64,000 bases of DNA, taken from the NCBI GenBank assembly GCA_003344405.1, contig NOWV01000186.1, positions 1-64,000 on the forward strand. The letters run 5' to 3'. Source of the DNA: Trichoplax sp. H2 (lineage: Eukaryota). Below the pieces are notes generated by a model. That model had not been told where the DNA came from. It saw only the letters and a list, made by a program, of their open reading frames with translations, and searched no databases. Below are positions 8,161 through 63,509 of this stretch, in pieces; positions within the stretch are counted from its first letter, which is position 1; every line of letters begins with the position of its first letter. The translations under genes and the position numbers were made by a program.

Positions 8161-8328
8161 GATCAATTGTTAGCTTCTAGTAATCTTTAATTTTCTATTC
8201 TACTATGTACTATTGATAAATGATCATTACCAAGACCTGTCTTAAGCGTTTCTAACGATGATATAAATGATTTGTCTGAATTGATTACAGTTTCCGTCGA
8301 GCCTAAATTGAAATCATCAATCCAAATG

Positions 8329-27463: not shown

Positions 27464-29278
27464 ATGGACACTATTTCGTTGAATGAAGAAGATTGTCCAA
27501 GTAGTAGTAGTATTAGCCACGGATACAGCCTAGAATCCATTGAATTGAGAGACAATCTTGAATATGATGCTGATGATCACGAGTGCCTCCTGAAATTTAC
27601 CTCCCGATTTATCAATCGCCATATCCAATATGAGCTTAATGCTAAAGCTTTTCAATATTACTTGGATAAAGTAGACGATTCGCCTGGGCCTACAACGTAT
27701 TATTATCTAGCACGTTGCTATCTCTTTGGTTACGGTATAGAGAGAAATCTTGAAGACGCTTATGAATTTATGGTATCAGCAGCTCAACTGCGCCATCCGG
27801 ATGCATTACGCGATTTAAGCTTATTATTTAGCTGCCCATCGACTCTCCATCATACTCAAACTTTCAGAACCTATACAGTCAGCGATTACAATTATAAACG
27901 ACTCAAAATTACATCATTATTAATGTCGGCATCGCTAGGCAGTTATAATCAATCACTTCAAGATCTTTTCAATTTATCGCAATTCATTTTTTGGCAAGAT
28001 ATGATTTGCCATTTAGATTGTATTTATACCAATTTAATCGATCGTTATTTCGATGGAGATGAACGCCACTTAGTTGATCTTCAACAAATTGCCATGCGTA
28101 ACTCTAAATTGTTACAAACTCACTCAAACTCCGATGATATGATTGATCGTATCTACAGGGACACTGTATTAACAACAGAAAATGAGCTCTTTCAAGACGC
28201 TAAAAATTTCTCTGAAGAAATTATCGCTGATATCTGCAATCAATTAGGCATCTTACGCTATATTAAAAGCCTTCAACCGACGGAAATTCATCACAAGGGA
28301 GAATTATTAGCAGATGCATTAAAGTATTTTCAATGTGCAGCTAAATTAAATTGTGCTGCGGCTTACTTTAACATTGCAATTTATTATGATGAATTTATTC
28401 ACTATCGTCACAATATGACTGTAACAAAACTGCAACTAATGATGGAAGCTTCCGCTCGTGGCCATGCACTTGCACAATATGAACTTGGCTACCATTATCT
28501 TAATTCTATGTCCGAACAAGAGCAGGTTCAAGGTTGGCTATACTTGATGCTATCATCAAAATTGGGCTACTCTGACAATTTATACCTAGTTGGCATGAGC
28601 TATTTGAGAGACGATTGCCGTATATTTGATAAGAAAAATGTATACCTGGCAAAAACTATGTTTAAATTGGCTATTTTTAGTCTTGAAATTCCTAGTGCAA
28701 AGTATTCTAAAAGGGAATGTTTTCAACTTGGATTTGCATATCATCACAGCTTATACTTAGACGACGTACATGATAGTCTATTATACTTTGATCGATATAG
28801 ACTTGCTGCTCATTTTTACGCTTATGCTATTAAGAATCACCTCAATTTTTACTTGCCGTGTTGCTATTTAGCCAAGTTAATAGAAAAGCGCCGCATCTAT
28901 CCGTATGCTATTGAATATATTATAGAATTATATAATCTGGCCATCTGTGACGATGATATCGCTGTCAAAGGATATGCATGTTATCGTTTAGGTAAAACTT
29001 ATTCCAATCAATCCAGTGGTACCTATTATAATCCGTCAAAGGCTAACGAGCACTTTGCCAATGCACTCTGTCATTTTAAAAATGTTAAAGATTCAATTAG
29101 CGGCCAATACCATTATGCCAATATGCTTCTGCAAGGGCTCGGCGTTGTGAGAGACAGAAGCAAAGCTATCGAAATTTTAAGTACTATTTGTAACCGTATG
29201 CGACATTTTGGCGATCCCTATAAATCCTATCTACAATCTAAAGCAGAGCGCAGATTAAGTCAATTAATTAAACACTAA
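27464..29278 (+). CDS. SLR protein 1, single module (604 aa, intronless)
   Basis: SLR motifs YYLARCYLFGYGIERNLEDA, AQYELGYHY and YHYANMLLQGLGVVRDRSKA. Family motifs GYSD, AAHFYA, LAKLIEK, YACYRLGKTYS. Confidence 0.85.
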   Translation: MDTISLNEEDCPSSSSISHGYSLESIELRDNLEYDADDHECLLKFTSRFINRHIQYELNAKAFQYYLDKVDDSPGPTTYYYLARCYLFGYGIERNLEDAYEFMVSAAQLRHPDALRDLSLLFSCPSTLHHTQTFRTYTVSDYNYKRLKITSLLMSASLGSYNQSLQDLFNLSQFIFWQDMICHLDCIYTNLIDRYFDGDERHLVDLQQIAMRNSKLLQTHSNSDDMIDRIYRDTVLTTENELFQDAKNFSEEIIADICNQLGILRYIKSLQPTEIHHKGELLADALKYFQCAAKLNCAAAYFNIAIYYDEFIHYRHNMTVTKLQLMMEASARGHALAQYELGYHYLNSMSEQEQVQGWLYLMLSSKLGYSDNLYLVGMSYLRDDCRIFDKKNVYLAKTMFKLAIFSLEIPSAKYSKRECFQLGFAYHHSLYLDDVHDSLLYFDRYRLAAHFYAYAIKNHLNFYLPCCYLAKLIEKRRIYPYAIEYIIELYNLAICDDDIAVKGYACYRLGKTYSNQSSGTYYNPSKANEHFANALCHFKNVKDSISGQYHYANMLLQGLGVVRDRSKAIEILSTICNRMRHFGDPYKSYLQSKAERRLSQLIKH

Positions 29279-30519
29279 TAAACAATTATCTTCTTAAATT
29301 TATTTCTTTCTGTAAAGTCCTACAAATGAATTGGTTCTTCATGAACAGAACTGTTGCTCTGATCATAAATAATAAATCAGCAGTAGGGTAATTAAAAATC
29401 GAGCCGATAGAATAAATAATGGTTATATTGTACATAGGACGATATCAGCCTTAACACAACTTATCCAGAGGATATACTTGATTATTTGTTACTCTTACAA
29501 AGTGTATAGCAAGAATTTCATTAATCATGCTTACATAAATTTAATTTTTCTATCTTCTTTGCATTTAAATTTAAATATGATAATTTAGACAATATAGCAG
29601 AATTTTCATCTATACTGTAGCGCGGTTTTGTTGCATAAAAATACAATATACTACCAAGATATATAATCATTGCCGCATTTCTAGCATTCTTAATCCTTTA
29701 CAAGCGAAGTAGCATTACTGAAATATGGCAATCTGAATTAATAATTATGAGCATCGGCGTCTTAAGAAGCATATTATATATTTATTCTTTTTCATACAAT
29801 GACTAATGTTGCGTGACTACCGCAAGCATGTTTTTGGCCGCCCACTTTTAATGTTACATTTAAATAGAATAATAATAAGAATAAGAGTTTGTTCAGTTTT
29901 CATAATTGATAATGTCAGTTATCTGACAGCGTATATTTTGTGTAATTAGCATACAGTATAGCAGAAAGAACAGAGCAGTAATTAGTGACCATATAAGACC
30001 ATAGTCTTGAAAGCAATTGTGGATTTGCTATCTTTACTTACAACATAATATAGTACAATTCAATTTCTCTGAGAGAAAAGTGATCGATTTTAAAATTTGT
30101 CTTTGTCCTTATTATACCACGCTAATAGTGACAATAAATTAATTTTCTGGTTATTGCAAGCGATTTTGTAGTTGTGTTATTAGTTTAAGTTAGAATAGAA
30201 TACCCCAAATCTGAAATCGGATTAGACAACAAATTGACAGTACTTAAAAATAGGCCGATAGCTTTAGTATTTGTACACAGATACGCTCAAGAAGTATCCA
30301 GTAGATAGCAAAAATTTTCATATTGTAAGACATGCATTGCTGGTCTATAATCATCCATTATTGCCAACTTTAAAATTTATTATTTCATGATGATGGTAGT
30401 AAGAAATCATTTTTCACTTAAATCAAGCTTAATTCATTTTGATACTTGCTATAATTGACTGAAATTTAATAAAGGAATCAACTATTACAAAATCTAAATA
30501 AGTTATACAATATAATGAA

Positions 30520-33500
30520 TCATTGGCGCTGCATAGAATCTTTTAGCATATCCAGCTTATTTTGACATTTCTTCAGGTAATGCTTAATAAAATAAACGTT
30601 GTTCTTACATTTACATCGTAATCCACACGAATAAAACTGTTTTGCCTTATTTAAATCTTTCCTTCGACCGCAACCAAATTGACACATTACACCTAAATAA
30701 TAATTGGACATACATGAAGTTGATGAATAATGTGAATGATTACGATAAAATAACTGAAATGCGCTGTTATAATGTTCGTTTGCCATATTTTGGCTATTGA
30801 TATTTGAGTACTGTTCGCATCGACTATAAATTTTTCCTAATAAATAATGTGCGTAGGCTGAATAACAGTTATCCTGAATGTAGATAGCTGATTGACATAG
30901 CTTTATCGCATCATCTAATTTATTTTTTGCTTTAATGTGATCATGGATGATTAATTTAGCTAAATAGCATCGACTTTTTGCATCCTCCATTTGATAAAAG
31001 GCATCAATAGCATAATAATGAGCAGCTAATTCGTAATGATTACTAGATGACCAATAATATTGATAGATCAAGCCTAATTCAGCAATGGGTAAATCCACTC
31101 TGTAACATCCTAATAGTTTATCCGATATGGATTGATGCAATAGTTGACGAGCCAGTTCGACATTTTTTGGACCCTGATATTTTAATGTTATTGCTAAATC
31201 AGCCATTGCATCAGGGAAACCAAAATTGGCTGCATTGGTGACACAGCTTGCTTTCTTTTCATCGTCCTTAGTATTTTCGTCACTACGATCGCATTTACTA
31301 TTATTGGTGTTGCAATGGATAAAGAACATTCGATTAGCTCCAGGGTGATTTAATTCAGCAGCTTTGTGATATAAATTGATATATTTCATTTTATTGTCAG
31401 CCAATTTTAGTTTAAGTTTAGTAAATGCATATAAAAATGTTCCTGCTGGATTTCCCAATTTCATTGATTCTTCAAGATGTTTCAATATTTCCTTGACAGC
31501 TTTCTGATCAGGCATTTTATAATTTAATTCTTTAACCATTAGTAAAATACCCATTTCTGCATGATATTTACTAGATGTCGTATTATTTAACCTTTTATTG
31601 ATAAAGCCTAATATTTTTTTATTAAAGCATTTAGTTAAATCTTTGATCCTTTCATCGATGATATCGCGCCAGCATGAATAAGCTTTCAAACGATCTTGCA
31701 TAATATCAATAGCACGAATTGATCCATTTAACGCTGCTGTTACTAAATTTTGTAATTGTACTGTTGCCAATTCTCTAGCAGTAGTAAATACTTGATAATA
31801 GAGTTGTGGACAGTCGCCGTCTTCTTCACAACCATATAAAAATGATAAATTAATACTTGCCATAGGACAATATAATTCAGCAGCTTGACTATAATATTCA
31901 GCTGATAATTTGAAATCTTTAACAGCGCCACCAAGACCATATTGATGCAACAAACCTAACTTATAATATGTAGCAGCATTGGGTTTATCTTGCAATTGGG
32001 TTTTAGCACATTGGAAATCGAATCGAAAATGTTCAACTGTTAACTGTTTACTGTAATATCTTTGGCTTATTTGATAAGCTTCCATCATTAATTGAATAGG
32101 TGAGTATCCCCATAATGTTTTAATTTCTTTATTTAACCAGTTCAGTTGATCATATAATTTGGCATTATCAGCATCTGCTGCAACTAGAATTTTACCTCGT
32201 AGCCAAGCTTTTATAGAGTAAAATCGATTTAAATAATTGTCAGTAAAATGAGCTCGAGTAATATAGAAATTGCGCTGAGGTGCTAACACAGGAATATGGC
32301 TACTTGTATTAGTGCATGATCCATCTTCCATCAATTTAGAGACAACATAGCGATCCATAGCCGCTGGTTTAACTAATAAAGCTTCTTCATTAAAGCAACT
32401 GAATGCAATATCCATATGCAAATGAACAGATACAGGCTGATAAAATGATAAATGTTGATATTGTTGCTGGCCAATAATTCTACCAAGCCTGTAATGACAA
32501 TATGGAGCAACTTGTGTTACATGTGAGTAAGCGCCATACTGATATAATTGGACAGCATCATTAATATTGCACTGAGATAATTTACCTTTTTCGATTAATT
32601 TAGCTAAACGACATAAAGCCAAGCTAATATCATGATGTGGATAAATCGAGGAAGCGTAAAAATGTGCCGCTGTAGTAATATTGGCTTGAACCCCAATACC
32701 AAATTCATACATTAAGCCAAGGTAAAAATATTCTGTTCGATCAACTGGACCAGCCATACTTGGAGGATTGACAATAGCTTGAAAAAAGTAATCTTTACCT
32801 TGATCAATATCAATATAAAATGGTTGGCCATCATTAAAGTACATAGAACCAAGTTGATTATAGACGTCTGAATAGGGTAATGCTTTTATATAATTTTCTA
32901 CGTAATATCGATGTTTTAAGATATTCCGTACTTCATTTCGACTTTCTCTCATACTTGCTTTCAATTTTATAGCAGCTAATGGACAGCCACGCAAAACAGC
33001 TCGATGGTAATGTTTAATTTGATCTAATTCTTGTAAACTAACTTCATTGCCATGACATAATGGAGTATCCAGCTCAGTATAAAATGCATAATTCATATCA
33101 CCACGTGGATCCCCTAGTTGGCTTGCTTTCTTGAAATAATCGAATGATTTGGCAGGTACGCGAATGTCTTCATCACTAGCTTGATCACGAAGTTGATCTA
33201 AAGTATTGCACTTATGGATCAAGTATTCAAGGAAGCCCAAACAGTTATATGAATCAATCAATATAATTGTATTCTGCTTTAATTGCTTAATAGTTTCGTA
33301 ATTTTGCTCTCTAAATTGATTGATTTCTTGGCGCCAATCTTGACTTGATCGATACAACGATCTTAATGCTTGAATAGCATCAGAATGGAGCCCAAAAGCT
33401 GCCGCTTTAATTAAATTATTAGCGTGTTTCTTAGCTAATTGTTGTTGATCGAGATGCTGATCATCAGATTGAATTATTTTGTCCCTATCTAATTGAAATA

Positions 33501-33861
33501 AGCCGTAATAAGCTAAAAGATGATTTCGTTGGGCAGCCTGATTATAATGGTATTCACTTTGTTTTTTATCGATTCCAATGGAAGAATAACCATGATGAAA
33601 GTAGTAACCGAGTAAATAATGGCTATGGGAATCATCGCCATGTTGTAATTTAACATGACAATCTCTCATAGCCTGGTCGTATATTTCAGTTGTTAGATGT
33701 TTTTGAATGCATTTAGTTGCAATTTTGTTGATTTTATCTCCAAATTGTTGAAAAGTAAAATCCCATTGCGTTGATACTTGCCGTTGAATTAGCAAAGCAG
33801 GATCAGGTGCAACCTCGTCATCATCAAAAGATGATGATGATGATGAATAATTCATCATCAA
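30520..33861 (-). CDS. SLR protein 2, double module (1113 aa, intronless)
   Basis: SLR motifs LGLMYEFGIGVQAN, LGLLHQYGLGGAVKDFKLS and LGVMCQFGCGRRKDLNKA. The LAKLI..YxLG block occurs twice, and the second module starts near 32140. Confidence 0.88.
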   Translation of the reverse strand: MMMNYSSSSSSFDDDEVAPDPALLIQRQVSTQWDFTFQQFGDKINKIATKCIQKHLTTEIYDQAMRDCHVKLQHGDDSHSHYLLGYYFHHGYSSIGIDKKQSEYHYNQAAQRNHLLAYYGLFQLDRDKIIQSDDQHLDQQQLAKKHANNLIKAAAFGLHSDAIQALRSLYRSSQDWRQEINQFREQNYETIKQLKQNTIILIDSYNCLGFLEYLIHKCNTLDQLRDQASDEDIRVPAKSFDYFKKASQLGDPRGDMNYAFYTELDTPLCHGNEVSLQELDQIKHYHRAVLRGCPLAAIKLKASMRESRNEVRNILKHRYYVENYIKALPYSDVYNQLGSMYFNDGQPFYIDIDQGKDYFFQAIVNPPSMAGPVDRTEYFYLGLMYEFGIGVQANITTAAHFYASSIYPHHDISLALCRLAKLIEKGKLSQCNINDAVQLYQYGAYSHVTQVAPYCHYRLGRIIGQQQYQHLSFYQPVSVHLHMDIAFSCFNEEALLVKPAAMDRYVVSKLMEDGSCTNTSSHIPVLAPQRNFYITRAHFTDNYLNRFYSIKAWLRGKILVAADADNAKLYDQLNWLNKEIKTLWGYSPIQLMMEAYQISQRYYSKQLTVEHFRFDFQCAKTQLQDKPNAATYYKLGLLHQYGLGGAVKDFKLSAEYYSQAAELYCPMASINLSFLYGCEEDGDCPQLYYQVFTTARELATVQLQNLVTAALNGSIRAIDIMQDRLKAYSCWRDIIDERIKDLTKCFNKKILGFINKRLNNTTSSKYHAEMGILLMVKELNYKMPDQKAVKEILKHLEESMKLGNPAGTFLYAFTKLKLKLADNKMKYINLYHKAAELNHPGANRMFFIHCNTNNSKCDRSDENTKDDEKKASCVTNAANFGFPDAMADLAITLKYQGPKNVELARQLLHQSISDKLLGCYRVDLPIAELGLIYQYYWSSSNHYELAAHYYAIDAFYQMEDAKSRCYLAKLIIHDHIKAKNKLDDAIKLCQSAIYIQDNCYSAYAHYLLGKIYSRCEQYSNINSQNMANEHYNSAFQLFYRNHSHYSSTSCMSNYYLGVMCQFGCGRRKDLNKAKQFYSCGLRCKCKNNVYFIKHYLKKCQNKLDMLKDSMQRQ

Positions 33862-37052: not shown

Positions 37053-40000
37053 TTACATAGACTGCTGGAGGGCTTTTGCAGCCTTATTTCGATATCGTAA
37101 TCTTACGAAATCGTAATCAGCTTTGGACATGTCTATCGTTTTCTGATAGAATAGCATAGCCTTACTAGAATTAGGATTTGTACCATAGCCACATTTGTAC
37201 ATTTTGGCTAAAATATAACAATCGCGACTAGCATTTTTACTGGATATTAACACATTATATTGAAATTGTCGATAAGCCATCCGAAAGTGCGACTTTGCTC
37301 GATCAAGATCGTAAAATTTATTATTCTGTTTATTGGAATAAATTTTACCTAATCGGTAATGAGCAACTCCGACATGTTGATCATTGATATAAATTGCCGA
37401 TTGATATAGTTTAATCGCATCTAAAATACTTGCTGCTGGAATCTTCTTCTTCTCGATCAACTGACCTAATAGAATACGCCCTTGACAATCGTTTAACTGG
37501 TGTACAATTTGAGTTGAATACCAATGCCTTGCTTTAATATATTTATTGGTACAAGTACTTTCACATTCATATATAATTCCAAGAAGATAATCTGGTAAAA
37601 TAGTTGGGATAACTTGATGATGATCTTCTACCATAGCTCTTTCAAGTGTTGAGATAGCCTTATCTAAATTGATTTCAATACCAAATCGTCCGTCAATCCG
37701 CCCTAATGCTATCACTAAAGTCGATAATGCATCGCCATACTTACTACCATCAATTAGCAATTGGCGTACTTTACGATCGTCCATGGTTAATTTTTCACCT
37801 GCGAATATTAGTTGAACTAACTGCAATTTAGCGGCAATATAATCCAATTTGGCTGCTTTCATAAGATAAGCTTGGGCATCATTCTTTTTATTTGAGCCTT
37901 TAAAATATTTTTTGTCCAATTTTAATTTAAGATAGCCAAGATAATAATAAGCTGCTGGATCATGTAATTTTGCTGCTTTATTGAAGTGATTGATAATTTC
38001 ATAAACAGATAATGAGTTTGGTTGATCGAAAATAGCTTCTCGAATCATGAGTAATATCCCTAATTCGACCTGCAATTTTGTCAATTCATCATGACTTAAT
38101 TTTCTACTTTTACCGTGGCGATAGCTCTTTTCTCGTGTCTTAATACTGGCATCAATTAACTTACTCCAAGCTGGTTTATCTCGAACTTGTTGATCGATAT
38201 AATGCAAAGAATTGATGTTACCCATATAAGCGGATTGTAATAATAAGTCCAGACGATATTCTGCACATTGCTTAGTGCTAGAATACACTTGGCAGTAATT
38301 TGTAGGATCATCACCTTCTTCTTCGCATCCAATCAACAATGCAAGCCCATGATAGGCTAATGAATGACCTAATGCAACAGCTTTATAGTAATGATTCATA
38401 GCTATAGCAGGATCTTTCTTGACAGAGCCTAAACCATTGCGAAAGTAATAACCTAGCTGATAATGGACATTCATATCATCAGATTCTTGCAATTTCTGAC
38501 GATATTTACGGTAGGAATAATCATATAGTTTAGTCATAAAATCACTAGAAAGGTAGCGTAATGCAATTCGGTAGGATGACCACATAATCTCTTTTGGTTT
38601 ACTTTGCCATAAATTTTGAATTTCATCATTCATTGATGTAATATTCTGGATAATTTCTTGCCGTTGTGTAGGTTTCATCCCTTCGTATTTTAATTTAGCT
38701 TTAATAGCATAGTATCGATAATCTAATGATCTATTATAATATTCGCTTGCTGCATAATAACAGGCAGTTGGATTTGTTTCATTTTCTTGATTTGTATCTA
38801 TTGAATAAATATTGCCTTTTATGTAATAACTTATTGGGCATGGTGAAACAGCTTGAAGTAATTTATTGGCCATCTGGTAGTAAAAGCTAGCTTTAGTGGT
38901 ATCAAATCCCATTTCATGACTAATTAATCCTTTGCTACACATCCTACCCAATCGATAGCAAGCATATGCCGATGCTAGCGGTTCTAATTTTAGGCAAGCA
39001 CTTTGATAGAGTCTAACTGAATCAAGGAGTGTTGATCGAGGTACAGTTTCTTTTTCAATTAATTTAGCTAATAGGACCATAGTTATAGGGCATTTACTCG
39101 ATTTTAATAAGGTAGCTGCATAATAATGAGCAGCTTGTACTTTATCAATCCCAGTACCGACACCTAGTTGGTAAAGATAGCCTAAATAGCAATTATGTCG
39201 AGTATCTGTGGGATAAAGACAACTAGGATTGGCTGTTAATGCTCTCTCTAAATATTCCCGAGCCAATTGATGATCGTATTGCCATCCTTGGCGTGGCTCT
39301 AAGTAGGTATAAGCCAATTCTCTCAAGATATCAGAGAATCCGCCAGCTTTAGCAGCTTTTATCAATAGCCCTTGTGATATTCGATTACTATCAACGTTAT
39401 CTGGACGTTGTAAATTTAAAGCTAAATGCAGACTAAACCAGCCTAGTGGGTGATCTTTGATAGCTGATTGTATGAAACAACTCATAGGGTAAAGATTTGC
39501 TTCCTTTGTGTTAATAGAGCTGGAATCGGTTAGAAATTGTGGCGATAACATTTTCCTGAAGGCATAATTAAAATAGCCCTGGCCATCACCTAATTTAGCT
39601 GCTTTTTGAAAGCAGTCGTACGCATAACGTGTTGTTTTGTCAACAGAGGTAATTTTATCAGTGGTCAAGTTATCCTCATCGATGTTTTCTTCATCAGAAT
39701 TATCATCGTCAGTTTGACTAGCATGAATGAAACATTCAATAACACCAAGGTAATTATATAATTCTGCTATAGTCGATGTGTCAGTAGTTTCATCAATAGC
39801 AGTTTCGATATCATCCTTAATTTCTAGCAGTTTATTTCTCCAAAACGGATGACTGTTATATTTACTTCTCAACATTTTTCCAGCATAATAATGTTGACCG
39901 TTAACAACTGCATCCATTAATAATCTCACTTTAATGTCAATGAGTTGTTTTTCATCTATTTTTTGTATTGATGACGATTCTTGGTGATCTATATTTGAAT

Positions 40001-52799: not shown

Positions 52800-52900
52800 G
52801 TCCGTCCAGTCCATGTCCAAGCCATGACTGGATTGGACTGGAACGGAACGGTAAGGTACGCTAGCGTGTGATTGGCTAATTCGAAATAGCGAATAAACAC
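52800..52900 (+). promoter_or_regulatory. Candidate cell-cycle-type promoter of the forkhead gene
   Basis: Reverse CCAAT boxes ATTGG at 52832 and 52871, CHR-variant TTCGAA at 52880-52885 and forkhead-type site ATAAACA at 52893-52899. Confidence 0.45.
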
Positions 52901-53431
52901 GTTACACTAGGCCATGAAGGAGTTACAGGCAGTATGTTGTATGTATTGCGAAGTAGCGTACGGCACAGTCAATAGAAGGAAAAGACCAGGTGAATTTTTG
53001 GTCATAAACTATATGAGTGCGCCAACATGTATACGCGCTCATACTGTAACATATTGCAAGCAGATCATAGCCGAAGTGTCGAGCAGATTCCATGTGCTAC
53101 GCTACCGTCACTCTGATTTACCGTACTAAGTACAGTACTACAGTACAATTGTCGGTTACAATAGACTGTAGCCTATTGTCATCAACATATTCAAATTCAA
53201 ATTTTAGCAGGTAAAAAGCGGTAGGCAAAAGCTCGCTTAGCTGGCTGCGATCCTCTTCCCAATTCAAGTAGAAAGCGCCATCAACAAGAAGTAAAATCTT
53301 CTCTTATGTGATCTTAGCCATCAAAAACAAATTGAAAACTTGAGGTATCATTCCACGATCATTATCAAGAGGATCTAATTACCAATTCGATGCTAGTATC
53401 GAAGGGTCGATTCCAATTCAAGTAAAGAAAG

Positions 53432-56069
53432 ATGCAACAAGATCAGAGCAATTACGATGATGACGCTCTTAGCGATATCAATTGGCTAACAAATTTACAA
53501 CCTACCCATCTGCATAAGAATCGCAGTGATCGTTATGGCCTTGGCCAGTGTAGTAAAATGGATAACACTATCAACCAACCTCATCATTATTATACGCATC
53601 GATCACAACCGTCGACTTCGCGTTGCGGTATTAGTGAACCACCGCCCGAAGAAGTTATTGTTATGAATAGGAAATATGTCAAACCGCCTTATTCTTATGC
53701 TAAATTGATCACCATGGCCATCGACAGTACAACCGATAAGAAAATGCTCTTGAAGGATATATACGAATGGGTCGAAACGAAATATCCATTTTATAAGTAT
53801 ACTTCAAATAAAGGATGGAAGGTTAGTTTAGAGTGGATATCAATGGAAATGATGCATAGTCAAATCAGTCAGGTGCAGTGAGATGGATGACCAATACAGT
53901 AGATTCTATCTCTGCTTTCCAAAGACTGCGCCTAGAGCATTTTAAATTCATTTCTACAGCATAACCATGGACAACATCATACACCGTACTTGTAATCGAC
54001 AGTCATATAATGGCAAATTTTCATGTAACACACTATCTGAACTAGATCCCACTATTTCGACACACCTTCATAAGACCACTAGTAAGAGTGGCTTATGAGG
54101 CCTTAACATAACCATAAAGCCTTAACAGTCAATACGGTACCAATCATGCTGTACATTTCCAACCTTGTATTATTTATCATGTGTAATTTTATTCCATCAT
54201 TTTCTAGTATACAAACACATCTATTGAAGCAGTATAAGTAAAGATGCACTTGTACAACATGAAAAATTCATTATTTCAGTAATGTTACAGACTGTAGCCA
54301 TCTATTTCTTAGTAAGAAATCTTGCTAAGCCATAACACCATCCAATTCATCGACTTCGCTGAATACAGTAGAATAGGATGGTAGATGAAGTCACAATTTT
54401 ACTTGTTGAAATTTTTAACGATAGTCATGAGTAATTAATTACTAGACACAAATACAATTAGGTCATGTACAATCTTTAACTTAATGCTATAATATTTGAT
54501 TGTGCTATAGTGTATTCTCTAAAACCCATTCAATATTAATATGGTAAATTCAATTCCATCCGGTCAATAAAAGTAATATCTTGTATCGTTAGGAATGATG
54601 TTTTTCAATAGTTATCTTAATATGTGCTCTATGCCTTTAGCTAAATATACAGTATAACGTTCTTACCAATCTTCTTATTATTGTTCATATTTCAATAATA
54701 GAACTCCATACGTCATAATTTATCCTTGAAGCCTTACTTTATTAAGTTGGATCGTAGTGGCCGCGTTTGCAATTCGTCAGAAAGTAAAGGTTGCTATTGG
54801 ATGCTCGCACCATCGATGCAAAAAGAAAACATCCCTCCTGGTCAGCACATTATAACTACTGCTAATAAATTAACAAACATTTACACACAACCAAAAAATA
54901 ACCTGATTCCTACTGGCTTGCCGAATAAATCTGGTAAAAATATACCGACGGCATTAATTGCTACCCCTTTATATGCTGTATCAGACGGTAGCAATGATGA
55001 TCATAATAATAAGCGTGTTATCCCTATCTTACCCAAGGGTCTTCCAACATTTTACGTCTTAGCTTCTGTACCAACGTCCACTTCTGTTAACAGCGAAGCC
55101 ACATCATCTGAACCAATTACAACTATAGCTAGTACATCGCAAGTAAAAGACCTCCACTATGTAGTCGATAATCCCTCATTATTAGCTAACTCTCAATGTA
55201 CTGCATCAGCGCCTCAAGCTAATTTATCAAGCAACAACTACTACATTAACGATAATTTCCCCAATTCTAGCGTTACAGCTAGTTTAGGAACTTGCACACA
55301 AAATAACTCAGACGATATCAAGGCTTGGAATGATGATTTAAATGTGCCTTTCAGTAGAAAAAGACCAGGCCAAGAGATTTCGTCTGTAAATAAGAAACAA
55401 TGTGATAGCGGTATCATGGAAGATTCTACAACTACATTAGATGTCGAGAAATATGAAACTCCCAAGAAGAAAGACAGAGCTTCTACCACTATCGATGAAT
55501 CGACCTATAAAACTCCTATTAGAGCATTACAAGATGTATTTCCAGAAAACATTGTTTCATCACCGTTGGATACTTTGTCAACACCCAACGTTAATGCGCT
55601 ATTAAAAACTGTTAGTAGTAGTTGTAGGAAAAGTTTAGATAAGTTTGAATCATCATCATTTTGGAGTGAAATGGAAGCTGTAGCAGGTATGGCCACGTTA
55701 TTCACTACTCCTGTACGTTCTAGTAGCAAGAGAAATAACGATCACGAAACTACGCCTTTAGTAAGGCAGCAACCTACTTTAGCTGCTTTAAATGACAAAT
55801 CCAAAATAACTCCAACCAAAAATCAAGATAATCGGATTAACTTTGATGATTTAAGTTTAACCCCTTATCTGAAGACGATATTAAATACTAGTACATCTGA
55901 TAGTGGAATTTTTAGCTTTTCCTCGCCAACACGTTCTCCTAAGAGTATTCATGAATCTACGTCCTTGTTATCGCCTGCCGAATTTGTCAAGACCCACGAT
56001 TTGAAAGAGCTAACTCCTAGAAAGCCAATTCGTAATCGAGGTCGTCGATCATACAATATATCACAATAG
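53432..56069 (+). CDS. Forkhead transcription factor, most FoxM-like (2 coding exons, 585 aa)
   Basis: Exon 53432-53821 splices (GTTAGT...AATAG) to 54702-56069, joining KPPYSYAKLITMAI...LKDIYEWV...KGWK to NSIRHNLSL...KGCYW. Upstream LSDINWL motif and a long S/T/P-rich tail. Confidence 0.92.
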
Positions 56070-57516: not shown

Positions 57517-59181
57517 CTACTCTAATAATGTTAGTAGTGACTTTCGTTGTTTAAGTGCTTTTTGTGCGTAATGTTTATCATAAACAGAACTAGTTATTTC
57601 AGCAGTTCCAATCGCTTTTTGATAATTAATCACGGCTGCATCCAAATCTTTTCTGACCCCTAAACCAAATTGATATATTCTACCTACATGGTAGTAATCG
57701 TCTGAGTCTTGGTCAATTTTTTCCTTCCTCTTGGATCGAAATCGATCCAAAGCATACTCATAGTGGATTTTTGACAACCGAGAATCGTAATAATTGCAAT
57801 AACGATCATTTGAATAGATTTTACCCAGGCGGTAATGCGCATAGCCGTTAATATTATTATTATTATCTAATTCAATAATTTTCATGTATAACTTGATGGC
57901 TGAGGAAATGTTTAAATTTTGTAATTTCTTTTTTTCAATTAACTTTGCTAAAAATAAGTAGCATTGTAAACAATTGGCCATTAGGATACCAGAGGCGTAG
58001 AAATGCGTAGCTTGCTCAATATCTATGGATAGGCCTAAACCTTTATGATATATATAACCTAATTGAAAATATTGACGACCTTCGTGTAGATTGTCGAATA
58101 GATTAGTAGCAGCAATAGCCCATTCAAAATAATCTTTGGCTAAATTTAAATCTTGAGCAACACCTAATCCATTCAGATAAGCTAATCCAACATGATATAA
58201 TATATCAGAATAGCCGTAGCGAGCCGATTTCAATAACAGTTTTAGTGCTTCAGAATAATCACGATTGGTAGTGGGTGTTTCAGTTTGGTACAGGATTGCT
58301 AACTCAAATTGGGCTAAACAATGGCCTTGATCAGCTGCCATGATATAATATTGGATATTTTCACTGTCATGCGTTGTAGGAGCTGGACGAGGAGAGGATA
58401 AACCAGCAAATTTATGAACAGCTAAGTTGTAGCTGGCCGCCGGTTTACCTAGTTGCTTTGATTTTTCAAAATAGTCATAGCCACGTTGTAATTGGCGATC
58501 GCTCTTTTCTTTTTCATGATTGCATTCAGCGGTAATAACATCTAAGATACCAAGTTCATTATAGATATGACTCAATTGATTGGTATTCTCAGTTGTATCA
58601 ACTGATTTTTCTAATGATTGGTAATAATCATCAATGACTGAACGCCAATTTTGTGAATCAGCGTAAGAGTCTTTCAATTTTCGATAAGATTGTGTGTATT
58701 TGCCTTCAGCAGCAGATTTGGTCAGCATTTTCACTTGCTCTTCGATACTTTCTATTAAAGTTAATTGATCAATGTCTACATCATTATAATTGCCATAGCG
58801 ATCTTGAACTAATTGAGCTAACTGATAATAAGCACCAGGATGATGATCTTCAATTGCTAAACGATAATTTTCCATTGCTTTATGTTCATCCTTTTGAACT
58901 GGACCTATACCATAATGATAATAATATCCTAATTGATAATATTTATGCGAGTTATCTTCGACATCATTGCGAATACTGCGCGTTAACTGTTCTAGCGAAT
59001 TCCTATGCAATCTCTCATCAACCCCATCTAATAAATAATTTCGAGCAATTTTGATGGCGTCTTCATCTAAATCGTCTAATGTATCCTTGAATTTGATTGT
59101 ATTACTTGACGATGTTCTGGATGATGGCCCACTTCTTCTAGCTTGAATCACGATACGAAATCGTGTAACAGGAAAATCCAT
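57517..59181 (-). CDS. SLR protein 5, single module (554 aa from the first ATG, intronless CDS)
   Basis: SLR motifs LGYYYHYGIGPVQKDEHKA, VGLAYLNGLGVAQDLNLA, LGYIYHKGLGLSIDIEQA and VGRIYQFGLGVRKDLDAA, plus GYSD, LAKLIEK and YAHYRLGKIYS. The ORF-track GTG start overlaps a possible splice acceptor at 59283-59284. Confidence 0.87.
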   Translation of the reverse strand: MDFPVTRFRIVIQARRSGPSSRTSSSNTIKFKDTLDDLDEDAIKIARNYLLDGVDERLHRNSLEQLTRSIRNDVEDNSHKYYQLGYYYHYGIGPVQKDEHKAMENYRLAIEDHHPGAYYQLAQLVQDRYGNYNDVDIDQLTLIESIEEQVKMLTKSAAEGKYTQSYRKLKDSYADSQNWRSVIDDYYQSLEKSVDTTENTNQLSHIYNELGILDVITAECNHEKEKSDRQLQRGYDYFEKSKQLGKPAASYNLAVHKFAGLSSPRPAPTTHDSENIQYYIMAADQGHCLAQFELAILYQTETPTTNRDYSEALKLLLKSARYGYSDILYHVGLAYLNGLGVAQDLNLAKDYFEWAIAATNLFDNLHEGRQYFQLGYIYHKGLGLSIDIEQATHFYASGILMANCLQCYLFLAKLIEKKKLQNLNISSAIKLYMKIIELDNNNNINGYAHYRLGKIYSNDRYCNYYDSRLSKIHYEYALDRFRSKRKEKIDQDSDDYYHVGRIYQFGLGVRKDLDAAVINYQKAIGTAEITSSVYDKHYAQKALKQRKSLLTLLE

Positions 59182-59764: not shown

Positions 59765-60310
59765 ACTGGATCTACTGGACGCTGTCAGCCTGTCCGTCTG
59801 TACCGTACAGTACAGTACAGTACCGTGTACAGTGTACAGTACCTCACGATACAGTGCACATGCTGTACAGGACGTACTGTAGACTGTAGGCTTTCAGTAG
59901 CTTGCAATGTTGGTTAGAATCTCTACTGGACGCTGTCGGCCTGTCTGTCCGTACCGTACTGTACCTTACGCTACAGTATACTGTACTGTATGTACTGTAT
60001 CCTGCACAGTGTACAGTACAGTACAGTACCTTCCTCTACAGTGCGTATAGTGTATAGGACGTACTGTAGACTGTAGGCTTTCAGTAGCTTGCAATGTTGG
60101 TTCTACTGGAGGCCGTTAGACTAGCCGTAGTAGGATCTACTGGACGCTATCGGCCTGTCTGTCCGTGCCGTATTGTACACTGTACAGTGTACAGTGTACA
60201 GTACCTTACGCTACAGTATACAGTATGTACTGTACAGTACTGTACCCTGCACAGTGTACAGTACCTTACTCTACAGTGCGTGTACTGTACATACGCAGTT
60301 CTACAGTACA
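59765..60310. repeat. Three-copy tandem repeat (150-215 bp units) rich in TACAG/CTGTA
   Basis: TCTACTGGACGCT(G/A)TC(A/G)GCCTGTC at about 59771, 59922 and 60136. GGACGTACTGTAGACTGTAGGCTTTCAGTAGCTTGCAATGTTGGTT at about 59870 and 60057. Confidence 0.9.
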
Positions 60311-61841
60311 GCAGGCCGTGGTAGTAGTACTACTATAAAATGGCTTTTGGGTTCATGGCGTAATCCAAGATTGTATTTGGAATATTGATTGATTAGGGGA
60401 AAAATGATTTATTTGTACAGTAGACTGGATAGATCATCGTATGCAGTTGTTCAGAAGGCGCAATGCAACAATATTATGGCTACTCCTAACAGCTGCGGCA
60501 CTAGCCAAAATGATGTCATCAAAAGCCATTAATACGCTACGGTCAAAAAAAATAATAATAAACAAACTTCAATACAGTTCCCTATAGTGATACAGTAGAG
60601 GATTTGCTGGTTGTTGAAGCAGTAAAATTGTGACAGTATTGTCACTTGATCCAGTACTCCTCCTCCTCTATTCTACAGGATAAGACTCCAACGAGAAGGA
60701 AAGACAAGCTGAAAAAGAAACTCGACAAGTGCTTCTACTCCAATTTTCGACATATGCCTACGAGAAAAGAAGATTGCGCAAGTAACAACGAAACGCCATT
60801 GGTGCTGAGTTCACATTGACTGAAACTTTCATAAGCTATCCCTGGTGAAAAAGAGGCAAAAACACTCAGTACGCCAATCGAGAAAAGTAAGAGGGAATAT
60901 ACCGCTGTCATTTGATGTTGATCGATCAATATCATTCTAGTCGTCAATAGCTTTACTATGATGACATGATAGCTTAGTCGTTGTTGATCAAGAATGAAAT
61001 GTCTTATTCCATACATTTGTGCTCTGTTAGGATGATTTGACGGTCTATTATGTTAAAATTATTTCATCACGATAGCGACAGGTAGTGAAATAACCTTGTA
61101 GGATTAGGATTGATAGGCAACGGCTGAGGAGGTACACGTATGGATTCATATCTACAGTAGATTCTACACCTTTTGAGTGATGAAACTACAACTCTTTGGA
61201 TAGAGTCAATGGAGTGCTTGTAGGAATCAACAACTGTAATGTATTTTCCTGTCATAAGATTGTACAGAAGGTACAGGAGAAATACACTGCGTAGTCTTAG
61301 ATCAAGATCAGTTTATTGTTAATAGATGTTAAATCATGCCATTCCAATCAGTCACAAGCAAACGGAATAGTTTAGCAACGGCTATTGGAAACAATCCTAC
61401 ACTATAAAATGAATACTCATGACCAAGACAAGCGCCAAACTTTCCCTTGAGTACATACGTGCAATTTGAATCTTCTACTTTTAAAAACAACATAATCGAC
61501 GTGATACGATGAACAGCAATATACTGTACAGTACTTAGGGTAGCCCACGGATAACAATCATTGATAACTACCTGACCATAAAGAGATTCAATACCTTACA
61601 TCAATGACTTAATCAATAGACAGACGAGCGTACATGAAAGGATATTTTCAACGCTCTTACGTACAATCCTATCATTTACTCTATAAATAATATCAATTTA
61701 CCAGAAATTGCACTATAGTCACGGTACAACAGTAAGTTGAATTATCTCCCTGAAAAATTTTCCTAATCGTTTCTACAGTATAGGTACCATCGCTTGCGCA
61801 AGGCTACAAGTTAACCGCAACAGCTATAGAATTGAAGCAAA

Positions 61842-63509
61842 ATGAGAGATATTTGGTCCTCCAATATTGGTATAATCACAGAATCAGTTGAATCAGAAAT
61901 ACTCGAGGATGATAATAATGAAGACATTGACGACCTCACCCAAGATATTACCTTTGATGATCTCCTTGAAGAAATTGGACATCATGATATTTTATTACTT
62001 TATCATCATCAACATATCATGGATCAACTGTATAGTGAAGCTTTCCAAAAATTTTTACAACGTACACAAACCTCTAATGATGCTCACGCACATTATAACT
62101 TAGCTTATTTCTATTATAATGGTCATGGTGTAGCAAAAAATTACAATCTTGCTTTCTATCATTATCAGCTAGCCGCTAAACAAGACCATCCTGGTGCATT
62201 ATACAATATATGCTTACTGTATGGTATTGAAGGAAATACATCACCACAAAATGTTCGCTTCATGCCACCTGACAAATTAGCTGAATTTAAAGTCACTATG
62301 TATGTTCGATCAGGAGCTCAAGGCCAATATACAAATGCCTATAGTAAATTAGTCGACAATTATCAACAGTCTGAGCTTTGGCAAGTAGCTCTCAATAAAT
62401 TATACGAACTATATTTACAGCAGATTCATTGTACCGACGATCATTCTGATAATAACCATGAAATAGCCAGTCTCTACAATCAGTTAGGTTTTATATGCAT
62501 GGTAAAATATAGTGCCAACGATGATTCCAGCGCGTTATTTCAAGCCAATCGCTTCTTTCATCAAGCAACCCAATTAGGTAATCCATCAGCCTATTTTAAT
62601 TTAGGCTTTTTCAAGTATGGTTTTGCATGTAGTCCAGACAAAGACAGAGAAAAAGAGATAGAAATGTTGGAGATTGCAGCTCGAAATGGTCATACATTAG
62701 CACAGTATCAGTTAGGCTATTATTGGCGTACTACGTTAAAGAGTCAAATTGAAAATTGCCGAAAGTCTTATGAATATTTCCAGAAAGCGTCTGTCCATGG
62801 CTATTCAGATACTTTATGTAACTTAGGATTTTTGTATGTCAATGGTATTGGTGGCGTTCAACAAGACTTTCAACTTGCTGTCGACTACTTCCGAACTGCG
62901 TCAGTGGTGGATGAACTAGCGTGCACGCAGTACGCCAAAAGAGAATGCTTCAGTTTAGGATTTATGTACGAACATGGTATCGGCGTGCCTGTCAATTTAA
63001 TGTTAGCCAGCCATTTTTATGCATATGGAGCAACTTTTCAATTAAATAGTAAAAAATCACTTTGCCATTTAGCTAAATTAATCGAAAAAGAGCACATAAC
63101 CCCATCATTCATTCGAGATGCTATTGAATTATACCAGCGTGCGATTGCTTCCAACAATCCATATATTTGTGGTTATGCTAACTACAGGCTAGGAAAGATA
63201 TATAGTAATCTAAGATTTGATGGATACTTTGACGAAGAGAAAGCGAACTGTCATTATCAGATAGCGCTAAATTGTTACCAAACCTATCCTAATCTGTTAG
63301 GCGAAGGCGGTGCAGACCACTACTACCATTTAGCAACATTATACGAAAAAGGTTACGGTGTCAGTATTGACTTTGAAAAAGCAAAAAACTATTACCTTCT
63401 ATCAATTAAAACTGCAGAAGAAAGGGTAGATGTCTACCAAGACTACTATGGTCAAAAAGCTAAAAGACGCTACAACGCCATCATCACCCAAATTGATACA
63501 GAGTCTTGA
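61842..63509 (+). CDS. SLR protein 6, single module (555 aa, intronless)
   Basis: The most canonical SLRs of the set: AHYNLAYFYYNGHGVAKNYNLA, LGFLYVNGIGGVQQDFQLA, LGFMYEHGIGVPVNLMLA and LATLYEKGYGVSIDFEKA. Also GYSD, LAKLIEK, YANYRLGKIYS and an acidic N-terminus. Confidence 0.9.
   Translation: MRDIWSSNIGIITESVESEILEDDNNEDIDDLTQDITFDDLLEEIGHHDILLLYHHQHIMDQLYSEAFQKFLQRTQTSNDAHAHYNLAYFYYNGHGVAKNYNLAFYHYQLAAKQDHPGALYNICLLYGIEGNTSPQNVRFMPPDKLAEFKVTMYVRSGAQGQYTNAYSKLVDNYQQSELWQVALNKLYELYLQQIHCTDDHSDNNHEIASLYNQLGFICMVKYSANDDSSALFQANRFFHQATQLGNPSAYFNLGFFKYGFACSPDKDREKEIEMLEIAARNGHTLAQYQLGYYWRTTLKSQIENCRKSYEYFQKASVHGYSDTLCNLGFLYVNGIGGVQQDFQLAVDYFRTASVVDELACTQYAKRECFSLGFMYEHGIGVPVNLMLASHFYAYGATFQLNSKKSLCHLAKLIEKEHITPSFIRDAIELYQRAIASNNPYICGYANYRLGKIYSNLRFDGYFDEEKANCHYQIALNCYQTYPNLLGEGGADHYYHLATLYEKGYGVSIDFEKAKNYYLLSIKTAEERVDVYQDYYGQKAKRRYNAIITQIDTES

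What the first reader, a model, noticed from the sequence alone, without database searches (positions are those of the whole stretch)
27464..63509. Cluster of six intronless, strongly diverged Sel1-like-repeat genes: candidate uncharacterised intracellular sensor or symbiont-interaction family
Seen: six long single-exon ORFs share one ~500-550 aa module (9 copies) with recurring motifs G(Y/F)SD, A.H(F/Y)YA, LAKLIEK, Y..YRLG(K)IYS and a terminal Y..KA...L helix, while the sequence between motifs is very divergent. No signal peptide, transmembrane segment or catalytic domain is visible, so these are not SEL1L/Hrd3. Known: SLR solenoids are protein-binding scaffolds, and animals normally have few SLR-only genes. 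Inference: a clustered, fast-diverging cytosolic solenoid family fits a variable recognition repertoire for innate immunity or endosymbiont control.
Basis: partly seen in the sequence, partly recalled or inferred. Interest (0 to 1): 0.85.

Follow-up and report, generated by a model that had tools for sequence, protein, structure and literature searches.

The report
Ancient placozoan Sel1-repeat gene cluster
This is a real cluster of six expressed, cytosolic Sel1-repeat scaffold genes in the simple animal Trichoplax, but it is old and stably inherited across placozoan genera, which does not fit a fast-changing immune repertoire.

Summary
Six uninterrupted ORFs at 27464-63509 carry nine copies of one ~500-550-aa Sel1-like-repeat (SLR) module with the stated motifs. 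The DNA is Trichoplax, from 99.5-100% protein identity to NCBI entries TRIADDRAFT_51443 and _51449.

Corrections:
- Only the coding regions lack introns; gene 6 has a spliced 892-nt GT..AG 5'UTR intron.
- A FOXM1-like gene sits inside the cluster.
- A seventh gene, TRIADDRAFT_51450, lies just past the window.
- At least 10 further paralogues lie on other scaffolds.

A published orthogroup table lists each cluster gene once in each of four placozoan species, with consecutive gene numbers. Likely orthologues are 64-66% identical. The shown polymorphisms give pN/pS of about 0.17. No member carries a signalling domain.

The "uncharacterised cytosolic SLR family, not SEL1L" part is supported. The "fast-diverging variable recognition repertoire" part is not.

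Best reading: an ancient placozoan-restricted family of solenoid adaptor proteins with a conserved C-terminal docking block. The partners and the function are inferred, not shown. Interest is moderate to low.

The parts
27464..29278 (+). g1: one-module SLR gene (604 aa), TRIADDRAFT_51443
   Evidence: Uninterrupted ORF. Pfam Sel1 hit. 99.5% identical to P0003, TRIADDRAFT_51443. Orthogroup OG_4938 has one gene in each of four placozoans. The Trichoplax sp. H2 orthologue sits in gene module TrH2.darkgreen, membership 0.894.
30520..33858 (-). g2: two-module SLR gene (1112 aa), taken to be TRIADDRAFT_51444 from gene order
   Evidence: ORF. Pfam Sel1 hit. Colinear with g3 and g4. Its N and C modules fall in separate N and C clades. 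TriadG51444 is in module Tadh.purple (peptidergic_epsilon), membership 0.578.
37053..40379 (-). g3: two-module SLR gene (1108 aa), taken to be TRIADDRAFT_51445 from gene order
   Evidence: ORF. Pfam Sel1 hit. 100% identical to P0040. The model has pLDDT 73.9 and pTM 0.48: two solenoids joined by a low-confidence linker, residues 529-596. The H23 orthologue is in module HoiH23.purple (peptidergic_nu), membership 0.521.
48023..51556 (+). g4: two-module SLR gene (1177 aa), taken to be TRIADDRAFT_51446 from gene order
   Evidence: ORF. Pfam Sel1 hit. Contigs from RNA libraries span 47842-52037 in overlapping or abutting pieces, with no joint. Orthologues are in modules TrH2.green (0.703) and HoiH23.salmon (gland, 0.6).
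53426..56069 (+). FOXM1-like forkhead gene embedded in the cluster (forkhead exon 53426-53881, S/T-rich C-terminal ORF 54801-56069). Not a family member.
   Evidence: Pfam Forkhead hit, E 1.2e-16. OG_4942 FOXM1, TriadG20374, lies between 51446 and 51448 in all four species. RNA-library contigs cover 53242-53819 and 54700-56460. That the two ORFs belong to one gene is inferred.
57517..59181 (-). g5: one-module SLR gene (554 aa), taken to be TRIADDRAFT_51448 from gene order
   Evidence: ORF. Pfam Sel1 hit, E 5e-25. 100% identical to P0043. RNA-library contigs cover 56936-59721.
59770..60290 (.). GTACAGT/GTACTGT-rich repeat block between the divergently oriented g5 and g6
   Evidence: Direct-repeat families D1-D4. 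Depth is 2075-3807 in the DNA-like run X1 against about 110 elsewhere, so the sequence has many copies in the genome.
60652..60886 (+). Non-coding 5' exon of g6. The 5' end is a minimum, set by where the contigs start.
   Evidence: RNA contigs join 60886 to 61779 in 3 of 3 RNA runs and in 0 of 1 DNA-like run. The donor is GTAAG at 60887.
60887..61778 (+). 5'UTR intron of g6 (892 nt, GT..AG)
   Evidence: Joint table. Sequence checked. An in-frame stop lies just before 61836, so the upstream exon is non-coding for g6.
61842..63509 (+). g6: one-module SLR gene (555 aa), TRIADDRAFT_51449
   Evidence: ORF. Pfam Sel1 hit, E 8.5e-28. 99.8% identical to P0001. AlphaFold2 model with pLDDT 87.1 and pTM 0.84: an all-alpha solenoid with residues 1-46 disordered. 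Best fold matches are solved SLR proteins.

Best explanation
The window holds most of an ancient tandem cluster of genes for cytosolic Sel1-like-repeat (SLR) solenoid proteins. As far as the searches reach, the family occurs only in placozoans.

Shown:
- A ~500-550-aa module of about 12-13 helix pairs, with a disordered and mostly acidic or Ser-rich N-terminal tail, is the unit of evolution.
- One internal duplication made a two-module gene. Gene duplications then gave four two-module genes and three one-module genes at this locus.
- At least 10 further paralogues lie elsewhere in the genome.
- Each cluster gene has since been kept as a single-copy orthologue, in the same order, in Trichoplax, Hoilungia and Cladtertia.
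- The genes are nuclear. g6 is shown to be transcribed by its spliced 5'UTR intron. g4 and g5 are covered by contigs from RNA libraries.

Inferred:
- The proteins act as non-enzymatic adaptors.
- The block conserved across the whole family near the C-terminus (g6 residues about 386-454: AAHFYA, LAKLIEK, YANYRLGKIY, with conserved K412, K416, R449, K452 and later K539) is a common docking or assembly site.
- The more variable repeats on the N-terminal side give each paralogue its own partner.
- Dispersed paralogues that add long coiled coils, and one with a C-terminal CaaX box, suggest that some members tether partners to membranes or the cytoskeleton.
For: - Module and motifs.
- SLR membership and fold: Pfam Sel1 in 6 of 6 genes. 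The g6 model has pLDDT 87.1 and pTM 0.84. The best Foldseek matches are solved SLR proteins: 6ok3 (E 3.5e-12), SEL1L, EsiB 4bwr, LceB, LpnE and HcpC. A profile search of PDB sequences agrees.
- Cytosolic location: no hydrophobic segment.
- Lineage restriction: of the 150 best profile hits, 22 match the whole module in 1-2 stretches and the other 128 are generic matches in 6-56 stretches. Of 17 family-type hits looked up, 12 carry names, all Trichoplax adhaerens or Trichoplax sp. H2, and 5 are unnamed.
- Duplication history: N modules form one clade (SH-aLRT 96) and C modules another (99). The 14 cluster rows split from the 16 dispersed rows (100). Orthologue paths are 0.43-0.51 against 2.3 or more for paralogues.
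- Stability: OG_4938-4941 and OG_4943-4945 each hold exactly one gene per species in four species, with consecutive gene numbers.
- Constraint: 64-66% orthologue identity against a genome mean distance of 28.3 +/- 12.9%. pN/pS is about 0.17 from 15 listed variants.
- Conserved block: helices 19-22 are the most conserved both among paralogues and between orthologues.
- Nuclear and expressed: the GT..AG joint is present in 3 of 3 RNA runs from one study and absent from the DNA-like run. RNA contigs lie over g4, g5 and g6. Single-cell gene-module membership was seen for TriadG51444 and for orthologues of g1, g2, g3, g4 and 51450. GC3 of 0.24-0.31 is like the neighbouring genes.
- Coiled-coil and CaaX paralogues: P0049 ends in CCAIM after about 600 residues of coiled coil, with an ATG16-like hit. 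P0080 and P0045 have long non-SLR tails.
Against: - No partner, location or phenotype is known. The adaptor mechanism and the role of the conserved block follow only from the general behaviour of SLR/TPR solenoids.
- Many conserved positions (A, G, L, Y) are the structural consensus of SLR repeats. The block could be a folding core rather than a binding site.
- Lineage restriction rests on a top-150 list crowded with giant repeat proteins, and 5 of the 17 family-type hits looked up are unnamed.
- The orthologue identities use unnamed proteins whose species I cannot state.
- pN/pS uses only the 40 variants shown; 94 more were not listed. These variants may mix alleles with strain differences.
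- RNA evidence for g4 and g5 comes from contigs of one study. DNA carry-over cannot be excluded for unspliced genes.
- The two-module model has pTM 0.48, so nothing can be said about how the modules pack.
Confidence: 0.6

Rival explanations
1. One reading: a variable intracellular recognition repertoire for innate immunity or for control of the two bacterial endosymbionts.
For: - The family is an expanded, clustered, lineage-restricted solenoid family with very divergent paralogues.
- Placozoans carry intracellular symbionts (passages).
- Outside the family, unnamed proteins join Sel1 repeats to TIR (P0200, P0203), CHAT (P0201) or caspase-type domains. SLRs can therefore serve in such architectures.
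Against: - There are strict single-copy orthologues in conserved order in four species.
- Orthologue divergence is near the genome average.
- pN/pS is about 0.17.
- The helices on the putative concave face are the more conserved ones.
- No signalling or effector domain is present in any family member seen.
- The module rows I saw are peptidergic, gland or unannotated, not fibre-cell or ventral-epithelial.
Confidence: 0.1
2. A claim about origin that is compatible with the best explanation: the family descends from a bacterial SLR gene transferred into the placozoan stem lineage, then expanded and domesticated.
For: - All coding regions are uninterrupted, up to 3.5 kb, while the neighbouring P450 genes are multi-exon.
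- The best solved-structure and Atlas neighbours are mostly bacterial SLR proteins.
- One dispersed member, TRIADDRAFT_60263, and its 76%-identical relative P0050 carry an N-terminal DUF2610 (PF11020, 68.9 bits). Two papers list that domain as an accessory domain of cyanobacterial orthocaspases (listing; passages of one, PMC8283722, read).
- Driscoll 2013 lists a SEL1/TPR coding sequence among bacterial-like sequences in the assembly (passages).
Against: - GC3 is like the host's and g6 has a spliceosomal 5'UTR intron.
- No bacterial protein matched the whole module in one stretch among the 150 best hits.
- The two neighbouring Rac-like GTPase genes are also single ORFs, so lack of introns is not special to this family here.
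- A scan of prokaryotic genomes with the DUF2610 part gave only a spurious antisense hit.
- The taxonomic range of DUF2610 is partly recalled, not tested.
- The Driscoll coding sequence could not be identified because the supplement was unreadable. The authors treat it as probable symbiont DNA.
Confidence: 0.15
3. The ORFs are non-functional: retro-copies, decaying duplicates or annotation artefacts.
For: Intronless coding regions and a lack of named homologues.
Against: - Nine modules of 500 aa or more stay open despite paralogue path lengths of 2.3 or more substitutions per site.
- There are single-copy orthologues in four species.
- Synonymous variants are in excess.
- g6 is spliced and present in RNA libraries.
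- The fold is predicted with confidence.
Confidence: 0.02

Closest known systems
Bacterial SLR solenoid proteins with solved structures: Oxalobacter formigenes Sel1 protein 6ok3, E. coli EsiB/c5321 4bwr, Legionella LceB 8sxq and LpnE 6deh, Helicobacter HcpC 1ouv
   Same: The same repeat type and an all-alpha superhelix of similar length. They are the best sequence-profile and fold matches.
   Different: Identity is only 17-22%, and TM-scores are 0.18-0.43 when normalised to the full query. As I recall, several of those proteins are secreted or periplasmic bacterial proteins. These genes are nuclear animal genes without export signals, and they carry a family-specific signature block that was not seen as a whole-module match in bacteria.
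SEL1L / Hrd3, the ERAD adaptor. This is the name automatic annotation gives several of these genes.
   Same: Sel1 repeats. Sequence-profile E-values of about 1e-24 to 1e-26 and fold matches.
   Different: There is no signal peptide or membrane anchor. Placozoans have a separate SEL1L orthologue, Tadh_wf_g3828 in OG_3102, which sits in a lipophil-cell module. The labels 'SEL1L adaptor subunit', 'HRD3A' and 'EsiB' on these genes are best-hit names, not orthology.
Other eukaryotic cytosolic or organellar SLR/TPR adaptors: LRP2BP, DELE1, COA7
   Same: Non-enzymatic SLR scaffolds with weak profile matches, E 5e-12 to 1e-7.
   Different: The matches cover only one or two repeats. There is no orthology, and placozoans list a separate LRP2BP in OG_3102. 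None of these proteins shows a duplicating 500-aa module.
Sel1 repeats fused to kinase, TIR, CHAT or caspase domains in protists and unnamed metagenomic organisms
   Same: Expanded SLR arrays in eukaryote-like or conflict-system architectures.
   Different: Similarity is at repeat level only, 22-29%. The placozoan family has no such domain in any member seen.

Membership tests
Sel1-like repeat (SLR) proteins, Pfam PF08238 / TPR clan | Sel1 HMM match above the curated gathering score | tested here: met
   35.6-96.2 bits against a cut-off of 30.7 in 6 of 6 SLR ORFs.
Sel1-like repeat (SLR) proteins, Pfam PF08238 / TPR clan | Helix-turn-helix repeats stacked into an alpha-solenoid that resembles solved SLR structures | tested here: met
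   The g6 model has pLDDT 87.1 and 26 helices between residues 38 and 554. The top Foldseek hits are SLR crystal structures, E down to 3.5e-12.
SEL1L / Hrd3 ERAD adaptor | Signal peptide, luminal SLR domain and C-terminal membrane anchor (features recalled from the literature) | tested here: not met
   The highest 19-residue hydropathy mean is 1.47, and no N-terminus is hydrophobic.
SEL1L / Hrd3 ERAD adaptor | Orthology to animal SEL1L | tested here: not met
   A different gene, Tadh_wf_g3828 in OG_3102, is the SEL1L-named orthologue in the four-species table. The cluster genes form their own orthogroups, OG_4938-4945.
Variable innate-immune receptor repertoire (NLR-, TIR- or Death-type) | A signalling or effector domain joined to the repeat sensor | tested here: not met
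   Only Sel1 and TPR-type families occur in the 6 window proteins. In the 19 relatives scanned, Sel1 came with at most TPR_27, an ATG16-like coiled coil or DUF2610. The long placozoan forms carry PF08238 only.
Variable innate-immune receptor repertoire (NLR-, TIR- or Death-type) | Lineage-specific gain and loss of copies | tested here: not met
   Seven orthogroups each hold exactly one gene in each of four species, in the same order.
Variable innate-immune receptor repertoire (NLR-, TIR- or Death-type) | Positive selection on the ligand-binding face | tested here: inconclusive
   pN/pS is about 0.17 from 15 listed variants. A-type helices are more conserved than B-type between g6 and its likely orthologue. 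No codon alignment of orthologues could be built here.
Secreted bacterial SLR proteins (LpnE, EnhC, HcpC, EsiB type) | Encoded in a bacterial genome and exported | tested here: not met
   The contig is 13.26 Mb and carries animal genes: P450, Rac-like GTPases and FOXM1. g6 has a spliceosomal intron in its 5'UTR. No export signal is visible.

The most novel reading that the evidence does not exclude
The family began as a bacterial DUF2610-SLR gene captured by the placozoan stem lineage, perhaps from an intracellular associate. It expanded to about 19 genes, and its fixed paralogues now serve as cell-type-specific adaptors that handle bacterial or vesicular cargo. This would be an old, domesticated host-microbe interface rather than a fast-evolving one.
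Probability: 0.08. Interest if true: 0.65.

Novelty: new variant of a known kind. Interest (0 to 1): 0.3.

Why it matters
Placozoans are among the simplest animals and are a reference point for early animal cell biology. This family has about 19 SLR adaptor genes, conserved across genera and possibly unique to the phylum. It is currently labelled 'uncharacterized' or wrongly as SEL1L, HRD3A or EsiB. It is a defined and tractable set of lineage-specific scaffold proteins. The result corrects those annotations and removes a tempting but unsupported immune-repertoire reading. It also points to a conserved basic block as the first site to mutate. It does not open a long-standing question.

Tried and rejected
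- Whole-genome search: no genome is held for this window.
- Earlier scan notes: nothing for this place or sequence. One unrelated bacterial Sel1 note was not used.
- Driscoll 2013 supplement, to identify their SEL1/TPR coding sequence: the file was unreadable.
- Paper searches for the gene ids and for placozoan Sel1 families found no description of this family.
- Extra family fragments in the window: none.
- Rfam and tRNA scans of the window: none.
- ESM Atlas gave only generic bacterial Sel1 clusters for g6 and nothing usable for the DUF2610 part.
- A scan of prokaryotic genomes with the DUF2610 part gave one locus, L001. It is a chance match on the antisense frame of a high-GC helicase gene and was rejected.
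- NCBIfam gave only sub-threshold repeat-level hits.
- Names of the best non-family profile hits: 9 of the 10 looked up are unnamed and one is a mucoromycete fungus. This says nothing about origin.
- Two-module structure: pTM 0.48, so no statement on inter-module packing is possible.
- Homodimer prediction for g6 residues 60-555: the job was never accepted because the queue was full. Pairing of modules is untested.
- Reads were laid only on 44001-64000. g1-g3 were not examined that way.
- A supplement search using terms that contained a tab found nothing. It was repeated with plain ids.

Full report
**What is there**

The window is AT-rich (GC 0.29-0.41) and gene-sparse. Seven ORFs exceed 250 aa. 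Six of them carry Pfam Sel1 repeats above the gathering score: g1 27464-29278 +, g2 30520-33858 -, g3 37053-40379 -, g4 48023-51556 +, g5 57517-59181 - and g6 61842-63509 +. The seventh, 54801-56069 +, has no Sel1 hit.

All-against-all BLASTP shows 22-32% identity among the six. g2, g3 and g4 are colinear two-module proteins, which gives nine modules in total. tblastn found no further family fragments in the window, with 0 of 63 hits outside the seven ORFs. A hydropathy scan found no candidate transmembrane segment or signal peptide (maximum 1.47).

**Whose DNA it is, and what surrounds the genes**

g6 and g1 are 99.8% and 99.5% identical to NCBI proteins TRIADDRAFT_51449 and TRIADDRAFT_51443 of Trichoplax adhaerens, on a 13.26-Mb contig. 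No whole genome is held for the window.

The neighbours are:
- two multi-exon P450 genes;
- two single-ORF Ras-family (Rac-like) GTPase genes (14116-14700 -, 22752-23390 -);
- a forkhead exon at 53426-53881, inside the cluster. With the S/T-rich ORF at 54801-56069 it corresponds to FOXM1, TriadG20374. That the two ORFs form one gene is inferred.

No Rfam family or tRNA was found.

**Expression and gene structure**

I laid contigs from four runs on 44001-64000. Run X1 has flat depth of about 110 and behaves like DNA. Runs X5, X6 and X10 are RNA libraries from one study, and their cover is uneven.
- Contigs span g4 (47842-52037, in pieces), the Fox ORF, g5 (56936-59721) and g6.
- Depth is zero or low in several intergenic bins.
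- All three RNA runs, and not X1, join 60886 to 61779. This is an 892-nt GT..AG intron whose acceptor lies 63 nt upstream of the g6 ATG.
- An in-frame stop lies just before 61836, so the upstream exon is non-coding.

g6 is therefore a spliced nuclear transcript, and 'intronless' applies to the coding regions only. For the unspliced g4 and g5, carry-over of DNA into the RNA libraries cannot be excluded.

Independent signs of expression come from the gene-module table of the placozoan single-cell atlas (Najle 2023, PMC10580291, supplement 3; I read part 1 and search passages):

| Gene | Module | Membership | Annotation |
|---|---|---|---|
| TriadG51444 (g2) | Tadh.purple | 0.578 | peptidergic_epsilon |
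| H2 orthologue of g1 | TrH2.darkgreen | 0.894 | not in the annotation sheet |
| H2 orthologue of g2 | TrH2.greenyellow | 0.516 | not in the annotation sheet |
| H2 orthologue of g4 | TrH2.green | 0.703 | not in the annotation sheet |
| H2 orthologue of 51450 | TrH2.paleturquoise | 0.628 | not in the annotation sheet |
| H23 orthologue of g3 | HoiH23.purple | 0.521 | peptidergic_nu |
| H23 orthologue of g4 | HoiH23.salmon | 0.6 | gland |

The Hoilungia (Hhon) ids were not searched. No row I saw is in a fibre-cell module or a ventral-epithelial module. Those are the cell types that house the two symbionts (PMC6784892, passages).

**Size and range of the family**

A profile of the nine modules was run over 1.84 billion representative proteins and hit 120,295 at E of 1e-3 or better. 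This is the generic Sel1 signal. Among the 150 best hits:
- 22 match the whole module in one or two stretches;
- the other 128 are long repeat proteins matched in 6-56 stretches.

I looked up 17 of the family-type hits. Twelve carry names, and every name is Trichoplax adhaerens or Trichoplax sp. H2. Five are unnamed.

Together, this gives 17 named T. adhaerens genes:
- 51443-51446 and 51448-51450 at this locus;
- 60256, 60263 and XP_002116205;
- 55171 and 55173;
- 56576, 57674, 57740, 61821 and 61740.

Two more appear only under Trichoplax sp. H2 names (RDD42610, RDD36814).

TRIADDRAFT_51450 is a two-module gene on the same contig. By the numbering it lies immediately past the window's end.

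Some dispersed members carry additions:
- P0049 has about 600 residues of coiled coil (weak ATG16 hit) and ends in CCAIM, a CaaX-type box.
- P0080 and P0045 have long non-SLR tails.
- TRIADDRAFT_60263 and its 76%-identical unnamed relative carry an N-terminal DUF2610.

No member seen carries a TIR, Death, NACHT, CARD, caspase or kinase domain.

**History of the family**

I built a maximum-likelihood tree of 30 module rows (quick IQ-TREE, SH-aLRT support only).
- The N modules of g2, g3, g4 and 51450 form one clade (96). Their C modules form another (99).
- One internal duplication therefore preceded the gene duplications.
- The 14 rows from this locus separate from the 16 dispersed rows (100).
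- Paths between likely orthologues are 0.43-0.51 substitutions per column. Paths between paralogues are 2.3 or more.

**The decisive comparative result**

Supplement 4 of Najle 2023 (part 165, read) lists each cluster gene in its own orthogroup:

| Orthogroup | T. adhaerens gene |
|---|---|
| OG_4938 | 51443 |
| OG_4939 | 51444 |
| OG_4940 | 51445 |
| OG_4941 | 51446 |
| OG_4942 | FOXM1 |
| OG_4943 | 51448 |
| OG_4944 | 51449 |
| OG_4945 | 51450 |

Each orthogroup has exactly one gene in T. adhaerens H1, Trichoplax sp. [quoted passage not shown] Gene numbers are consecutive in every species: Hhon_g08995-09002, TrispH2_009884-009891 and PlH23_002399-002406. The adjacent P450 orthogroups do differ in copy number between species.

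The seven-gene cluster, with FOXM1 inside it, therefore predates the split of three placozoan genera and has neither gained nor lost a member since. My assignment of g2-g5 to 51444-51446 and 51448 rests on gene order.

**Constraint on the sequences**

- g1 is 64% identical to two unnamed proteins, and g6 is 65% identical to another. If these come from another placozoan genus, as the tree suggests, the distances (35-36%) lie within one standard deviation of the mean protein distance for 6,554 Hoilungia-Trichoplax orthologues, 28.3 +/- 12.9% (Eitel 2018, PMC6067683, section 8).
- Of the 40 sequence differences listed (94 more were not shown), 15 fall in g4-g6. Nine are synonymous and six non-synonymous. 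With 1376 synonymous and 5482 non-synonymous sites, pN/pS is 0.17.
- Along g6, the 'LG..Y' (A-type) helices are about 0.77 identical to the likely orthologue. B-type helices are about 0.65 identical. By analogy with SLR/TPR structures, the A-type helices line the concave face.
- The best-conserved stretch, both among paralogues and between orthologues, is helices 19-22 (residues 386-454). It contains conserved K412, K416, R449 and K452. A119, W180, Y448, Y495 and K539 are invariant.

**Structure**

The g6 model is confident (pLDDT 87.1, pTM 0.84). It has a disordered and strongly acidic tail at residues 1-46 (net charge -15 over the first 45 residues). About 26 helices follow, with one small hairpin. 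Foldseek and the PDB sequence profile return SLR proteins first: 6ok3, SEL1L/HRD3, EsiB, LceB, LpnE and HcpC. TPR solenoids follow.

The two-module g3 model has pLDDT 73.9 and pTM 0.48, with a low-confidence linker at residues 529-596. It shows two solenoids whose relative position is undefined.

**Interpretation**

Shown: this is an old, stably inherited, expressed family of cytosolic SLR solenoids that appears restricted to placozoans.

Inferred: the proteins are adaptors with a common C-terminal docking block and paralogue-specific repeats. Some relatives may be tethered through coiled coils and a lipid anchor.

The immune or symbiont repertoire reading is not excluded by experiment, but it fails the tests that could be made here. 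A bacterial origin remains a minority possibility. It rests on uninterrupted coding regions, the DUF2610 fusion and bacterial nearest neighbours in structure. Against it stand host-like GC3, the spliced UTR and the failure to find a bacterial whole-module match.

No paper describing the family was found. The only related mention is a SEL1/TPR coding sequence among bacterial-like sequences in Driscoll 2013 (passages). Its identity could not be checked because the supplement was unreadable.

**Verdict**

This is a new, lineage-restricted variant of a well-known repeat-protein kind. Its function is unknown and its interest is moderate to low.

Noticed in passing
window 53426-56069 (+): A FOXM1-like forkhead gene sits in the middle of the SLR cluster and keeps that position in four placozoan species (OG_4942). 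In Trichoplax sp. H2 it falls in a module with LIN37 of the DREAM complex (TrH2.bisque4, 0.829).
   Followed up: partly
window 59770-60290: A GTACAGT/GTACTGT-rich repeat block lies between the divergently oriented g5 and g6. Depth in the DNA-like run is about 20-35 times the flanks, with many alternative joints, so the sequence is an interspersed high-copy element. A weaker depth rise occurs at 52005-52671.
   Followed up: partly
window 14116-14700 (-) and 22752-23390 (-): Two Ras-family small GTPase genes, named Rac family in the atlas table (OG_4936 and OG_4937), are also single uninterrupted ORFs just upstream of the SLR cluster. They are conserved 1:1 in four species.
   Followed up: no
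window about 2800-10000 (+): Two tandem multi-exon cytochrome P450 genes (CYP24/CYP27-like by the atlas names). Unlike the SLR genes, their orthogroups OG_4934 and OG_4935 differ in copy number among the four placozoans.
   Followed up: no
P0212 (TRIADDRAFT_60263) and P0050, residues about 28-90: One dispersed family member carries an N-terminal DUF2610 (PF11020, 68.9 bits), conserved at 76% identity in an unnamed relative. Two papers list this domain with cyanobacterial orthocaspases. It is a possible clue to a bacterial origin.
   Followed up: partly
P0049 (Trichoplax sp. H2 RDD42610), C-terminus: A family module followed by about 600 residues of coiled coil, ending in CCAIM, a CaaX-type prenylation box. 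Automatic annotation calls this protein 'Myosin-11'.
   Followed up: no
window 40400-48000: A 7.6-kb stretch between the divergent g3 and g4 has no ORF of 90 aa or more. RNA-library cover over the part examined (44001-48002) is patchy and mostly low, rising only in the last bin next to g4.
   Followed up: no
window 63509-64000 and beyond: An RNA contig carrying g6 runs on past the window's end by about 700 nt. This indicates either a long 3'UTR or read-through towards the next SLR gene, 51450.
   Followed up: no
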